Shown piece after piece: positions 4,087 to 6,322 of a stretch of 8,131 nt of DNA. A program made the translations under genes and the position numbers. Numbering within the stretch: the first letter of the stretch is position 1; every line of letters begins with the position of its first letter. The stretch is from an uncultured Gammaproteobacteria bacterium (GTDB taxonomy: Bacteria; Patescibacteriota; Microgenomatia; Daviesbacterales; UBA10151), in contig CAZFVS010000048.1 in assembly GCA_964522265.1 (NCBI GenBank), positions 1 through 8,131 of the forward strand. Reading direction: 5' to 3'. Under the pieces are notes generated by a model, which saw nothing but the letters and a program-made list of their open reading frames with translations, was not told the DNA's origin and made no database searches.

Positions 4087-6322
4087 TAATGCCAGGCCAT
4101 TTGGAGAGCATGATTGATTGTTCTGTATGAGGAAGTTTTCTCCAAAACTCTTCTGTTAAAAAGGGTATGAATGGGTGGAGGAGTTGCAGTGATGTTTTTA
4201 AGACATATTCTAAGGTGGGTTGTGCCTCAGCACGCCTTTTTTTTGTGTTTTCAATATAAATATCGGCAAAATCATGCCAGATAAAGTCATAAAGTTTTTC
4301 AGTAGCTAAATGAAGGTTGAAAAATTCTATATTTTTGGTTACTTCTGATATTGTTTGATTTAGTTGCTTGAGAATTTTTTGGTCATCAGAGTGAAGCCGT
4401 TCGGGGTCCTGTCGGACTTTACCCCCATCCGATGTCCTCACTTCGTTGCGGGCACTCGATGGGGGTCCCCCAAGTCCGCCACCCCTCGCCACTTCTCCTG
4501 GAACCAAATCCACCACAAACCTGGTGATGTTTCTTATTTTTGTACCAAAGTTTCTGTAATTTTTACATCTTTCATCCATGATCTGTCTTGACGTCTTAGC
4601 ATCCCGTCCAGGAGCGCAGTAGCTGTAAAGTGCCATCCTGGTTGCATCGGTTCCCCACTGCTTAACAAGTTCATAAGGATCAATACCGTTTCCGAGGGAT
4701 TTGGAGAACTTTCTGCCCTGCAAATCCCTGATCATGCCATGGAAGAACATGTTTTTAAACGGTATTTCATCCATAAACCAAACTCCAAGCATAATCATTC
4801 TGGCTATCCATAAATATTTGATCTCCGGGGCTGTCAGTTCAAAATTCCACGGATAGTACCTTTGAAGCTCTTTTGTCCGGTTTGGCCCGCCTTCGTTATG
4901 ACTACGACGGGTAGACCAGTCTAAGGTAGCCATGGGCCAAAGACCCGAGGAAAACCAGGTGTCAAGTACCTGCTCGTCCTGAACCCATCTTGAGAGCTGG
5001 CAGGTCTGGCATTTTTTAATTTCACCTGAATCAGGATCTTTTGGCTCATCCAGTGAAATTACCATGTCTTTGTCTTTGCCTACTTCATGATTGGGGTTGC
5101 ATTTTTGACAGTACCAGACCGGAATCCGGTGGCCCCACCAAAGAGAGCGGGAAATTGACCAGTCATGCACGTCTTTGATCCAATCTGATATAATCTTGTT
5201 GTAATTTTTAGGCACAAAATTGATTTTATGAATATGTTTTAGGGCTTTTTGAGCCAAAGGCTGCATTTTAACAAACCATTCCTCAGAGATTAAAGGTTCA
5301 ATGGTTGTTTTGCAGCGCTCGCAAACCGGAACTGAATGGGTATATTCCTCAACTTTTTCGAAAGCTGCTGATTTTTCCAGTTTTTCCGCAGCCTTTTCCC
5401 TGGCCTCATTAACTTTAAGCCCGGTAAGATCATCCGCCAATTCAGTCATACGGCCGAGTTTATCAACGCAGTGCAAAATAGGCAGTCCGTGTTCTTTGCC
5501 GATTTCATAATCAAGCGGGTCATGGCCGGGTGTAATCTTTAAAGCACCGGTTCCAAAATCTTTTTCAACACGTTTATCTTCAAAGATTGGGATTTTATTT
5601 CCGTTTAAGGGGTTGATGGCAACTTTTCCGATAAATTTTGCAAATTTGGGGTGCTTTGGGTAAACCGCGATTCCTGTATCAGCGTAAATAGTCTCAGGTC
5701 TGGCGGTGGATATGGTAATAAATTCTGCTGTTTTATCAATTTGGTATTTAACATAAAAAAGTTTTTCCTTTCTTTCCTCGTATTCCATCTCTAAATCTTC
5801 AATCGCTGTCTGGTCTTTGGGGCACCACTGGACAATGTAGGCACCTTTATAGAGTAAATCCTGGTCCCAAAATGTTTTAAATTCCGCCAAAACAGCTTGT
5901 TGGACTTTTGGCTCCAGGGTAAAAACTTCTCTTGACCAATCAGCAGAGAGTCCCATCAACTTCCAGGTATCATGGAAAGCCTGGTAATTTTCGTCTTTAA
6001 ACTGCCAGGCTTGTTTCATCCATTCCTCCCGCCCCAATTTTTGCTTACTTAAACCCTCTTTTTCCAAAAGTTTGTTTAAAGTCCCCTCAAAAAGTATTCC
6101 GGCATGGTCAACACCGGGAAGCAGCAGGACATCAAACCCCTGCATTCTTTTAAAACGGGCAACGGCATCCAGGATTGCATGCTGCATGGCGTGACCCAGA
6201 TGCAGGGGCCCATTAACATTTGGCGGAGGGATTAAAAGAGAATAAGGTGTGTTGGTAGAATTTGGGTTTGCCTGAAAAAGATTTAATTTCTCCCAAAACT
6301 GATAAATAGATTTTTCGTCCAT
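4076..6322 (-). CDS. valS: Valyl-tRNA synthetase, short form without the C-terminal coiled-coil.
   Basis: HIGH motif HLGH at 6191-6202 and KMSKS motif KFSKS at 4697-4711, both verified by reverse-complementing. Editing-domain motifs are present (TARPETIYADTGIAV, GTGALKITPGHDPLDYEIG), as are Cys knuckles CERCKT and CQKC...CQTC. The ATG at 6320-6322 is preceded by AGGAAG (6327-6332). The ORF-track TTG at 6361 has no SD but cannot be excluded. Confidence 0.95.
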   Translation of the reverse strand: MDEKSIYQFWEKLNLFQANPNSTNTPYSLLIPPPNVNGPLHLGHAMQHAILDAVARFKRMQGFDVLLLPGVDHAGILFEGTLNKLLEKEGLSKQKLGREEWMKQAWQFKDENYQAFHDTWKLMGLSADWSREVFTLEPKVQQAVLAEFKTFWDQDLLYKGAYIVQWCPKDQTAIEDLEMEYEERKEKLFYVKYQIDKTAEFITISTARPETIYADTGIAVYPKHPKFAKFIGKVAINPLNGNKIPIFEDKRVEKDFGTGALKITPGHDPLDYEIGKEHGLPILHCVDKLGRMTELADDLTGLKVNEAREKAAEKLEKSAAFEKVEEYTHSVPVCERCKTTIEPLISEEWFVKMQPLAQKALKHIHKINFVPKNYNKIISDWIKDVHDWSISRSLWWGHRIPVWYCQKCNPNHEVGKDKDMVISLDEPKDPDSGEIKKCQTCQLSRWVQDEQVLDTWFSSGLWPMATLDWSTRRSHNEGGPNRTKELQRYYPWNFELTAPEIKYLWIARMIMLGVWFMDEIPFKNMFFHGMIRDLQGRKFSKSLGNGIDPYELVKQWGTDATRMALYSYCAPGRDAKTSRQIMDERCKNYRNFGTKIRNITRFVVDLVPGEVARGGGLGGPPSSARNEVRTSDGGKVRQDPERLHSDDQKILKQLNQTISEVTKNIEFFNLHLATEKLYDFIWHDFADIYIENTKKRRAEAQPTLEYVLKTSLQLLHPFIPFLTEEFWRKLPHTEQSIMLSKWPGIIDN
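4403..4485. repeat. GC-rich imperfect palindrome inserted in-frame in valS.
   Basis: Paired arms: gggg (4403-4406)/cccc (4482-4485); cggactt (4413-4419)/aagtccg (4472-4478); cccccatc (4422-4429)/gatggggg (4458-4465). By hand count, 60 of 90 bases in 4401-4490 are G or C, against AT-rich flanks. It encodes GEVARGGGLGGPPSSARNEVRTSDGGKVRQDPERL. Confidence 0.6.

What the first reader, a model, noticed from the sequence alone, without database searches (positions are those of the whole stretch)
4391..4500. GC-rich imperfect palindrome translated inside valS
A block of about 110 nt is 67% GC over 4401-4490 by my count, while its flanks are AT-rich. It folds on paper into a long interrupted hairpin (gggg/cccc, cggactt/aagtccg, cccccatc/gatggggg, with a 28-nt loop). 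It encodes a Gly/Pro/Arg-rich stretch (GEVARGGGLGGPPSSARNEVRTSDGGKVRQDPERL). This lies between the conserved RFV and D-x-(W/K)-IL positions at the start of the anticodon-binding domain. E. coli ValRS has about 18 residues there; this protein has about 40. It is a second essential gene in the same window with an in-frame, compositionally foreign, self-complementary insert.
Basis: partly seen in the sequence, partly recalled or inferred. Interest (0 to 1): 0.65.

Follow-up and report, generated by a model that had tools for sequence, protein, structure and literature searches.

The report
Mobile GC-rich hairpin translated inside valS
The GC-rich palindrome inside this ultra-small (CPR) bacterium's valyl-tRNA synthetase gene is a real copy of a previously undescribed family of hairpin-shaped selfish DNA that sits in frame in many unrelated essential genes and is read through as a floppy surface loop, much like the palindromic elements of Rickettsia.

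Summary
Window 4401-4490 is 66.7% GC, the richest 90-nt stretch in a 40% GC window. It folds into a long hairpin (RNA z = -3.3) and adds about 25 residues to a linker that is 10 residues long in most of 121 ValRS orthologues.

It is not a ValRS-specific peptide. An 83-nt core (4403-4485, minus strand) recurs at 76-96% identity in other CPR/Patescibacteria contigs. These copies sit in frame in ValRS, UvrD-like helicase, DUF2298, CarB, FolD, UppP, a Wzy-like protein and the PolA exonuclease domain. There is also one intergenic copy.

Copies are read in different frames and in both orientations, so the DNA is conserved and the peptide is not. Thirteen aligned copies share a base module (GGGGTGRC...RCAGGACCCC) and an apical motif. 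Their stems differ but stay paired: 7 pairs show compensatory changes, 0 of 500 shuffles match.

Element similarity is discordant with host similarity (96% element identity against 46% host identity), and several genes carry copies at the same site in different lineages. AlphaFold2 places the insert in the only low-confidence internal loop.

Best reading: a non-autonomous mobile hairpin element that works like Rickettsia palindromic elements, in a new phylum and with new features. The mobilising enzyme is unknown.

The parts
4393..4495 (-). Full hairpin of the element as it folds in this copy (103 nt). It includes an outer 5-bp stem P0 (GAAGU 4491-4495 / GCUUC 4393-4397) and the subfamily extension GCGA...GAAC.
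   Evidence: MFE fold (-51.5 kcal/mol for the 103 nt). The outer stem differs but still pairs in L001 (GUUGC/GCAAC) and L086 (GCUGC/GCAGC).
4403..4485 (-). Conserved 83-nt core: GGGGTGGCG-[P2]-GGGGGACCCCCATCGAGTGCCCGCA-[loop]-GAGGACATCGGATGGGGG-TAA-[P2']-CGACAGGACCCC.
   Evidence: Alignments A1 and A2. Covariance model R1 scores it 107 bits, E = 5e-26. Identity to copies in other hosts is 76-96%.
4481..4485 (-). P1 5' arm, GGGGU. This is the base module conserved in all subfamilies, followed by GR.
   Evidence: Invariant in 13 copies; pairs 7-11/96-100.
4403..4407 (-). P1 3' arm, ACCCC, preceded by the conserved unpaired RCAGG.
4472..4478 (-). P2 5' arm, CGGACUU. This is the variable, covarying stem.
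   Evidence: Partner AAGUCCG. Other copies have CGGGCG/CGCCCG, CGCCCGU/ACGGGCG, CGGACAU/AUGUCCG and UCUCGU/ACGAGA.
4413..4419 (-). P2 3' arm, AAGUCCG.
4458..4466 (-). P3 5' arm, ACCCCCAUC.
   Evidence: L089 compensates: CCCCCUUC/GAAGGGGG.
4421..4429 (-). P3 3' arm, GAUGGGGGU.
4432..4455 (-). P4 (GUGCCCGC / GUG-GG-CAU, with two G-U pairs that exist only on this strand) and the apical loop, which varies in length (6 nt here, up to about 20 in other copies).
4394..4498 (-). Codons of the 35-residue linker GEVARGGGLGGPPSSARNEVRTSDGGKVRQDPERL. The core encodes RGGGLGGPPSSARNEVRTSDGGKVRQDP.
   Evidence: pLDDT is below 50 for residues 615-637 of the 748-aa gene product.
4076..6361 (-). Host gene valS (the ORF as listed; the called product is 748 aa and starts at 6322). 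It appears intact.
   Evidence: Pfam tRNA-synt_1 1.7e-115 and Anticodon_1 4.6e-30. 80% aa identity to a Candidatus Daviesbacteria ValRS. The model matches T. thermophilus ValRS 1GAX at TM 0.84.
7703..7792 (-). Second translated hairpin element, in tsaD. It belongs to a different family (termini GUCAUUGCGAG / CUCGCAAUGAC). It is not part of the valS element but shows the same phenomenon.
   Evidence: Fold -32.3 kcal/mol, z = -4.1, 0 of 200 shuffles as good. It splits the Pfam TsaD match. It is present at the same site in the L002 orthologue.

Best explanation
The block is one copy of a dispersed, non-autonomous, GC-rich hairpin element of CPR/Patescibacteria genomes. I call it the V family here.

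Anatomy. The core is 83-105 nt. All copies share a base module: a 5-bp stem GGGGU/ACCCC closed by an asymmetric internal loop (GR on the 5' side, RCAGG on the 3' side). In the window-type (A) and B subfamilies the module carries an apical motif (TCGA...GAGGAC). Between base and apex are stems whose sequence differs from copy to copy but stays paired.

What is shown.
- The element has landed in many unrelated housekeeping genes, and at least once between genes.
- Every copy inside a gene keeps the reading frame open.
- The same DNA is read in different frames and in either orientation.
- In ValRS it forms a roughly 25-residue disordered loop between two helices, at the junction of the catalytic core and the anticodon-binding domain.

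What is inferred.
- The copies seen inside essential genes are those that happened to preserve the frame in a permissive surface loop. They are simply translated, not removed.
- The element is selfish. The peptide has no function of its own.
- The conserved base module and the strand-specific hairpin are what a trans-acting enzyme recognises. The absence of target-site duplications, the G-U(T) pairs that exist on one strand only, and the sense-strand bias (8 of 9 coding sites) point most towards a single-strand hairpin mechanism of the IS200/IS605 or REP-RAYT type. This last step is a guess, at about 0.3.
- Near-identical copies in very different hosts, and repeated occupancy of the same loop in ValRS, UvrD-like helicase and DUF2298, imply recent horizontal spread. 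They also imply either strong target preference or replacement of a resident element by an incoming one.
For: Foreign composition and hairpin.

Insert relative to orthologues. 71 of 121 ValRS have a linker of 16 aa or less (most often 10 aa). 50 carry longer linkers (17-43 aa) of several unrelated peptide types at exactly this site. Empty-site DNA was seen in L094 and L095.

Same DNA elsewhere.
- L001 valS, 92.6% identity, with a frame shift in the left half.
- L056 carB and L018 polA; the polA copy is in the opposite orientation.
- L082, an intergenic copy of 91 nt with stops in all three forward frames, and L084 DUF2298.
- A six-frame peptide search added a divergent ValRS, FolD, a UvrD-like helicase, UppP and a second DUF2298.
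- Pattern and covariance-model searches added L091/L092 valS (subfamily B, E about 1e-6, not used to train the model), L084 uvrD (subfamily C), and L012 Wzy_C and Def.

Structure. RNAalifold gives 26 pairs, 7 with compensatory changes. 95.1% of cells are paired against 40-51% for slid controls, and 0 of 500 shuffles match. All three subfamilies fold to the same architecture.

Element history does not follow host history. Window against L086: 96.4% element identity, 46% host aa identity, third codon positions 34% identical. Window against L091: 63% element, 71% host.

Decay after insertion. The Def copy keeps the termini and the open frame, but its interior has drifted to AT-rich sequence and weak pairing.

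Permissive location. AlphaFold2 gives mean pLDDT 85.8, and the only internal segment below 50 is residues 615-637, between helices 579-605 and 645-666.

No transposase gene is listed next to any copy in the loci for which gene tables were returned.
Against: - No complete genome could be scanned. Copy number per genome is unknown beyond two copies within 6 kb (L084) and two within 3 kb (L012).
- The family is rare. An exact 21-mer found only 3 true loci in the metagenome collection, and the peptide found 1 hit among 1.84 billion representative proteins.
- No autonomous partner, no target-site duplication and no clean empty-versus-filled allele pair were found, so mobility is inferred from distribution and not observed.
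- Same-site occupancy in three genes is more than random insertion plus a permissive-loop filter easily explains.
- The sense-orientation bias (8:1, p about 0.04), the one-strand G-U pairs and the strongly conserved base module would also fit a role at the RNA level.
Confidence: 0.75

Rival explanations
1. The hairpin works at the RNA level. It could be a structured module in the mRNA bound by a protein, for regulation, processing or localisation. It could also be excised from the transcript, and its conservation would reflect that function rather than mobility.
For: - Compensatory changes maintain four helices.
- Two G-U pairs exist only on the sense strand, and the sense strand folds better (-51.5 against -46.3 kcal/mol).
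- 8 of 9 independent coding sites carry the element in sense orientation.
- The base module is invariant across three subfamilies.
Against: - Host genes are unrelated in function. One coding copy (polA) and the intergenic copy are antisense to the local genes.
- Every coding copy found by DNA search alone keeps the frame open, while the intergenic copy is 91 nt with stops in all three forward frames. Excision would not require this.
- The Def copy has lost the pairing but kept the ORF.
- No Rfam family matches at E <= 1.
- The element is not followed by a T-run.
Confidence: 0.12
2. The insertion is ancient and vertically inherited at each site (valS, uvrD, DUF2298). It is kept similar by strong selection or by gene conversion among copies, rather than by repeated new insertion.
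For: - The same codon position is occupied in ValRS of lineages only 44-46% identical, and likewise in UvrD-like helicase and DUF2298 orthologues.
- Subfamily B copies in L091 and L092 (79% identical) sit in hosts that are 70% identical.
Against: - Element and host similarities are discordant: 96% element against 46% host, and 63% element against 71% host.
- The closest orthologue (84% aa identity outside the linker) has a different element at the site.
- Carriers are interspersed among 71 empty orthologues.
- Flanking codons show no raised identity: 55.6% against 53.3% for the whole gene.
- The freely covarying P2 stem differs by only one compensated pair between the two most distant ValRS hosts.
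Confidence: 0.1
3. It is a lineage-specific functional ValRS loop, for example a basic tRNA-contacting extension. Its GC richness would then merely follow from Gly, Pro and Arg codons.
For: It is Gly/Pro/Arg-rich, lies near the anticodon-binding domain and is in frame.
Against: - The peptide is not conserved while the DNA is, because of the frame shift between the window and L001.
- The same DNA occurs in eight other protein families, in one intergenic spacer, and in reverse orientation.
- The loop is predicted to be disordered.
- Most orthologues lack it.
Confidence: 0.02
4. It is an assembly or chimera artefact.
For: The window is a short (8.1 kb) metagenomic contig.
Against: The same element occurs at the same valS site in independent assemblies from different runs and sources (Logan SRR22388326, SRR22388079), and related copies occur in NCBI, ENA and JGI records. 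The ORF is uninterrupted.
Confidence: 0.01

Closest known systems
Rickettsia palindromic elements (RPE; Ogata et al. 2000, as summarised in the MITE review PMC10969869)
   Same: Both are short palindromic repeats dispersed in a reduced, AT-rich genome. Both are frequently inserted in frame into unrelated housekeeping genes, including aminoacyl-tRNA synthetases (the synthetase detail is from my own knowledge). The host ORF is kept and the extra segment is compatible with the protein fold. No transposase is encoded in the element.
   Different: - No sequence relationship is known, and the phylum is different (CPR/Patescibacteria).
- This element is shorter: 83-105 nt against about 100-150.
- It is strongly GC-rich against its genome.
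- RPE families are described as encoding a conserved peptide. Here the same DNA is read in at least two frames per half and in both orientations.
- Near-identical copies occur in hosts with saturated divergence.
- The same loop is occupied repeatedly, by several subfamilies and by unrelated element families.
GC clusters and double-hairpin elements of fungal mitochondrial genomes, including the 'byp' elements of Magnusiomyces (from my own knowledge, not checked here)
   Same: These are GC-rich palindromic mobile elements in very AT-rich genomes. Some sit inside protein-coding genes without destroying them.
   Different: They are organellar and unrelated in sequence. Byp elements are skipped by the ribosome. 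Here the preserved frame argues for plain read-through.
REP/BIME sequences with RAYT transposases, and IS200/IS605-derived palindrome-associated elements
   Same: Both are hairpin-defined elements with no target-site duplication and with strand-specific structure including G-T mismatches. Both are non-autonomous and mobilised in trans. Both show orientation bias.
   Different: REPs are extragenic and have a GTAG head, which is absent here. No RAYT or TnpA gene was seen near any copy, and whole genomes could not be searched. Membership is untested.
Classical bacterial MITEs (Correia, ERIC, Nezha and others)
   Same: They are small, non-coding and dispersed, and are sometimes fused in frame to host ORFs (PMC10969869).
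   Different: MITEs have clear terminal inverted repeats matching a parent IS, plus target-site duplications. Here only a 5-bp terminal pairing is conserved and no duplication is visible.

Membership tests
Rickettsia palindromic elements (RPE) | Palindromic repeat of about 100-150 bp able to form a long hairpin | tested here: met
   83-105 nt hairpin, z = -3.3, 26 conserved pairs. It is somewhat shorter than RPEs.
Rickettsia palindromic elements (RPE) | Inserted in frame in unrelated protein-coding genes with the ORF preserved | tested here: met
   ValRS, UvrD-like helicase, DUF2298, CarB, PolA-exo, FolD, UppP, Wzy_C and Def all keep an open frame.
Rickettsia palindromic elements (RPE) | Insert lies at the protein surface and is compatible with the fold | tested here: met
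   AlphaFold2 model of ValRS: the insert is the only internal segment with pLDDT below 50, between two helices. The rest of the model matches 1GAX at TM 0.84. This was tested only for ValRS.
Rickettsia palindromic elements (RPE) | Many dispersed copies within one genome | tested here: inconclusive
   Two copies within 6 kb in L084 and two within 3 kb in L012. No whole genome could be scanned.
Rickettsia palindromic elements (RPE) | Each family encodes a conserved peptide in a fixed frame | tested here: not met
   The left half is read as GGPPSSAR or GDPHRVPA and the right half as RTSDGG or EDIGWG. The reverse strand is read in PolA.
Rickettsia palindromic elements (RPE) | Sequence similarity to RPE consensus sequences; host in Rickettsiales | not tested
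   No RPE consensus was available. The hosts here are Daviesbacteria, Saccharimonadales and other Patescibacteria, so it is not a member in the taxonomic sense.
Classical MITE | Target-site duplication flanking the element | tested here: not met
   No direct repeat is seen at the core boundaries in 11 copies, nor against the empty sites in L094 and L095.
Classical MITE | Terminal inverted repeats shared with an autonomous IS | not testable with these tools
   Only GGGGT/ACCCC plus an imperfect extension is conserved. No parent IS was found in the loci, or in the phage, plasmid or IMG/VR collections.
REP/RAYT or IS200/IS605-type hairpin elements | Strand-specific hairpin, no inverted-repeat termini of the DDE type, no target duplication | tested here: met
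   G-U pairs on one strand only. The covariance model scores the sense strand at 107 bits and the antisense strand at 15 bits. No TSD.
REP/RAYT or IS200/IS605-type hairpin elements | Cognate Y1 (HUH) transposase in the same genome | not testable with these tools
   None appears among the neighbouring genes listed.
REP/RAYT or IS200/IS605-type hairpin elements | Conserved GTAG head (REP) and extragenic location | tested here: not met
   There is no GTAG at either end, and 16 of 17 copies are intragenic.
Intein, or self-splicing intron / known structured RNA | Intein splicing blocks (at least about 130 aa), or a match to a group I/II intron or any Rfam family | tested here: not met
   The insert is 28-35 aa. 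There was no Rfam hit at E <= 1 over the window.

The most novel reading that the evidence does not exclude
The element is a hairpin-guided, site-selective mobile element that spreads horizontally among distantly related CPR lineages. It repeatedly enters, or replaces a resident element in, the same surface loops of orthologous essential genes (valS, uvrD, DUF2298). Recognition would be through the invariant GGGGU-GR / RCAGG-ACCCC base module, by a mechanism or enzyme not yet described. A variant of this reading is that the module is also used at the RNA level. CPR proteomes would then be shaped systematically by several such families, of which at least four peptide types are visible at the single ValRS site.
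Probability: 0.2. Interest if true: 0.8.

Novelty: new variant of a known kind. Interest (0 to 1): 0.6.

Why it matters
CPR/Patescibacteria have tiny genomes and are thought to be under strong streamlining. Even so, this window shows two essential genes carrying translated selfish hairpins, and one ValRS loop that has been colonised by several element families in about 40% of 121 orthologues.

If the reading is right, three things follow:
- The "protein-coding palindrome" phenomenon, so far a curiosity of Rickettsia and some organelles, extends to a huge uncultured radiation.
- It gives a concrete, searchable motif (GGGTGRC-N55-85-RCAGGACCC) for finding the mobilising enzyme and for tracing recent horizontal exchange between CPR lineages.
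- It warns annotators and structure predictors that many "CPR-specific insertions" in conserved proteins may be mobile DNA rather than adaptations.

I found no paper in the held library that describes this.

Tried and rejected
- Rfam scan of the whole window at E <= 1: nothing at the element.
- Internal repeats and BLAST within the window: only one V-family copy in the window.
- 18-mer scan of the genome collection: 79 hits. 76 were judged chance matches, nearly all in GC-rich genomes. 2 were recognised as true copies at the time (L018, L056), and L012 was recognised only later.
- Phage and plasmid BLAST: no match.
- IMG/VR scan with the terminal pattern: one chance hit that the covariance model rejected.
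- Peptide against 1.84 billion representative proteins: a single hit, a 56-aa ORF with a diverged copy. The 50% identity clustering hides insert-bearing proteins.
- Literature searches: by topic, nothing on CPR; by sequence string for the tsaD-type termini, only primer noise.
- Target-site duplications and a common target motif: none convincing. Some flank resemblances (KPKEL before the L001 and L056 copies, PE..A / DPER around the valS and uvrD copies) turned out to be best explained as an outer, less conserved part of the element in one subfamily.
- Intrinsic terminator: the element is not followed by a T-run on either strand.
- Intein or intron: too short and no motifs.
- Fold with DNA parameters on the plus strand: not significant on its own (z = -1.6).
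- Resemblance between the 10-aa empty linker DNA of L094 and collapsed element termini (GTGACAG): judged to be chance.
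Full report
**Context.** The window is a short contig of a Candidatus Daviesbacteria-like bacterium (CPR/Patescibacteria, Microgenomates).
- It carries ribosomal protein L25 (800-1603, plus strand), two toxin-antitoxin pairs, valS (4076-6361, minus strand), an unknown 186-aa ORF, and tsaD (6981-8102, minus strand, running off the end of the window).
- The best ValRS relative is an NCBI Daviesbacteria protein at 80% identity, on a syntenic contig.

- Composition: 4401-4490 is 66.7% GC. 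The flanks are 27% and 36%, the rest of valS is 41%, and only 0.05% of 90-nt windows reach this value.
- Fold: the sense strand of 4385-4505 folds at -55.8 kcal/mol against -43.5 +/- 3.7 for dinucleotide shuffles (z = -3.3).
- With DNA parameters on the other strand the excess is not significant.
- The quoted peptide is encoded in frame, between the Pfam catalytic-core match and the anticodon-binding domain match.

**Is it an insert?** I aligned 121 ValRS homologues.
- The linker between the conserved "..RFIxELKP" and "H(P/S)DDKxI" is most often 10 residues. 71 proteins have a linker of 16 residues or less.
- 50 proteins have 17-43 residues there. Their peptides fall into unrelated types:
  - the window type (..GGPPSSAR..RTSDGG..RQDP..), 5 proteins;
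  - a "RNDVIASEAKQS / IATS..PRND" type, 7 proteins;
  - a "..SGVANAPQND.." type, 12 proteins;
  - 26 unclassified.
- The closest orthologue (L002) carries the second type at this very site.
- Empty-site DNA from L094 and L095 is ordinary AT-rich coding sequence.

**Is DNA or protein conserved?** The DNA.
- The L001 orthologue (host 72% nt, 74-76% aa identical) carries the same DNA at 92.6% identity over 94 nt.
- One extra base before the left half and one missing base in the loop shift the frame. The left half reads ARGGGLGGPPSSARNE in the window and LRGVAGEGDPHRVPATI in L001, while the overall frame is restored.
- The second stem differs on both arms: CGGACTT/AAGTCCG against CGGGCG/CGCCCG.

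**A dispersed family.** Several searches found further copies.
- Exact-word scans of the genome and metagenome collections found:
  - CarB of a Saccharimonadales MAG (L056);
  - the 5'-3' exonuclease domain of PolA of a Patescibacteria MAG, in reverse orientation (L018, identical to L085);
  - a DUF2298 membrane protein (L084);
  - one intergenic copy (L082), 91 nt long, with stop codons in all three forward frames.
- A search with the six-frame translations added a very divergent ValRS (L086, same site), FolD (L087), a UvrD-like helicase (L088), UppP/BacA (L089) and a second DUF2298 (L090, same site as L084).
- A covariance model built from 11 copies, together with a terminal pattern, found members it was not trained on:
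  - L091 and L092 (valS, same site, subfamily B, E about 1e-6);
  - a subfamily C copy in a UvrD-like helicase of L084, at the same site as the L088 copy;
  - two copies in L012, in a Wzy_C/TPR membrane protein and in peptide deformylase.
- In every coding copy the ORF runs through the element.

**Anatomy.** All copies share three features:
- P1, GGGGU/ACCCC.
- An asymmetric internal loop, GR on the 5' side and RCAGG on the 3' side.
- A long stem-loop above it.

In the window-type subfamily the inner stems ACCCCCAUC/GAUGGGGGU and GUGCC/GG-CAU and the motifs CGAGUGCCCGCA and GAGGAC are almost invariant. P2 and the apical loop vary.

On the 11-copy alignment:
- 95.1% of cells form standard pairs, against 40-51% when partners are slid by 1-3 columns.
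- 7 pairs carry changes on both sides.
- None of 500 shuffles reaches the observed values.
- L089 compensates inside P3 (A-U to U-A) and P4 (U-A to C-G).
- Two G-U pairs exist only on the strand written above. The model scores that strand at 107 bits and the complement at 15-19 bits.

**Evolutionary behaviour.** Element similarity does not follow host similarity.

| Pair | Element identity | Host ValRS aa identity |
|---|---|---|
| window vs L086 | 96.4% (two of the differences form one compensated pair) | 46% (third codon positions 34% identical) |
| window vs L091 | 63% | 71% |

- Identity of the 60 codons on either side of the element is not raised.
- Carriers are scattered among empty orthologues.
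- Yet ValRS, UvrD-like helicase and DUF2298 each show the same loop occupied in different lineages, sometimes by different subfamilies.
- The peptide deformylase copy keeps its termini and its open frame, but its interior has drifted to AT-rich sequence with poor pairing. Resident copies therefore decay and are not maintained in place.
- By independent coding sites the orientation is 8 sense to 1 antisense, a binomial p of about 0.04.
- I saw no target-site duplications and no neighbouring transposase genes.

**Protein consequence.** An AlphaFold2 model of the 748-aa product has mean pLDDT 85.8 and pTM 0.82.
- It superposes on T. thermophilus ValRS 1GAX at TM 0.84.
- Its only internal low-confidence segment is residues 615-637, the insert, between helices 579-605 and 645-666.

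**Interpretation.** The best-supported reading is a selfish, non-autonomous hairpin element.
- Its copies survive inside essential genes only where they keep the frame in a permissive loop, and there they are simply translated.
- This is how Rickettsia palindromic elements are described (PMC10969869).
- It is not a member of that family: the phylum differs, no sequence link is known, and there is no fixed coding frame.
- It also differs in its GC richness, in the conserved base module with swappable stems, in the discordant near-identical copies, and in the reuse of sites.
- How it moves is not shown. The strand-specific hairpin, the lack of target duplications and the orientation bias make a single-strand, HUH-type route the most plausible guess (about 0.3).
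- An RNA-level role cannot be excluded (about 0.12). It is disfavoured by the variety of hosts, the antisense copies, the decayed copy and the strict frame preservation.

**Limits.**
- No complete genome could be scanned.
- The family is rare in the databases.
- Mobility is inferred from distribution only.
- I found no description of such elements in CPR bacteria in the held literature. That library is incomplete, so this is not proof of novelty.

Noticed in passing
window 7703-7792 (- strand), inside tsaD: A second translated hairpin element (z = -4.1) with 12-bp termini GUCAUUGCGAGA/CCUCGCAAUGAC, encoding ..SSLRDHEVAKQ..IATS..PPPRNDV. It is a different family from the valS element. The same family, in permuted form (..CGCAATGAC|GTCATTGCG.. 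at the apex), fills the valS hot spot in the closest relative L002 and in at least 6 other ValRS orthologues (RNDVIASEAKQS peptides).
   Followed up: partly
ValRS linker, window 4394-4498; alignment of 121 orthologues: This one loop is a hot spot. 50 of 121 orthologues carry 17-43 aa there, from at least three recognisable unrelated peptide or element types plus 26 unclassified inserts. Only the V type and one C-type copy were checked at the DNA level.
   Followed up: partly
L012 4180-6672 (residues about 236-295 and 476-536) and P0121 (residues about 353-400, on L084): Another shared in-frame repeat peptide, KQIxxSNxQNxKRFGxxxxxNLxLF.., occurs twice in the L012 Wzy_C protein and once in the L084 DUF2298 protein. 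It looks like a further family of translated repeats in CPR membrane proteins.
   Followed up: no
window 7105-7144 (tsaD, - strand coding): A near-tandem direct repeat, CGGATTTCGGATTTCAAAT / CGGAGTTCGGATTTTAAAT, lies in the part of tsaD that is most divergent from the L002 orthologue (..LRNLKSEIRILV..). It may be another small repeat insert.
   Followed up: no
window 6981-8102 vs L002 8740-9966 (TsaD): The first 119 or so aligned residues of TsaD, including most of the hairpin insert, are identical between the window and L002, and the alignment stays near-identical to about residue 180. The C-terminal part drops to roughly 70% (81% overall). This mosaic suggests recent recombination between the two lineages. 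The window copy also has an extra LALPTGR.
   Followed up: no
window 6365-6925 (- strand): A 186-aa ORF with no Pfam match lies between tsaD and valS. In the syntenic L002 locus the two genes are directly adjacent, so this looks like an inserted gene.
   Followed up: no
window 1400-1603 (+ strand), C-terminus of L25: A second GC-rich island (0.60) is not a hairpin insert. It is a low-complexity Glu/Gly/Ala-rich tail of ribosomal protein L25 (..EEGAEEGEKVEGETASAEGSGGPKEG..). GC-rich stretches of similar purine/pyrimidine-biased composition lie where the L25 gene is annotated in L002, and in an unannotated partial ORF downstream of valS in L001.
   Followed up: no
window 2488-2984 and 3516-4051 (- strand): Two type II toxin-antitoxin pairs (ParE/Phd-YefM, and BrnT/CopG-type antitoxin) lie between valS and L25. 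Only the BrnT pair is present in the syntenic L002 locus.
   Followed up: partly
L012 (CAYZZF010000010.1): This MAG is labelled 'uncultured Gammaproteobacteria'. The contig is 37% GC and carries two V-family copies plus the CPR-style repeat peptide. Either the contig is mis-binned or the family reaches beyond CPR.
   Followed up: no
L084 4242-4338 and 9891-9978: The two copies in this contig belong to different subfamilies but share the same 6 nt just outside the core (..GGACCCC-ATCGGA). This suggests lineage-specific extensions of the element's 3' end.
   Followed up: no
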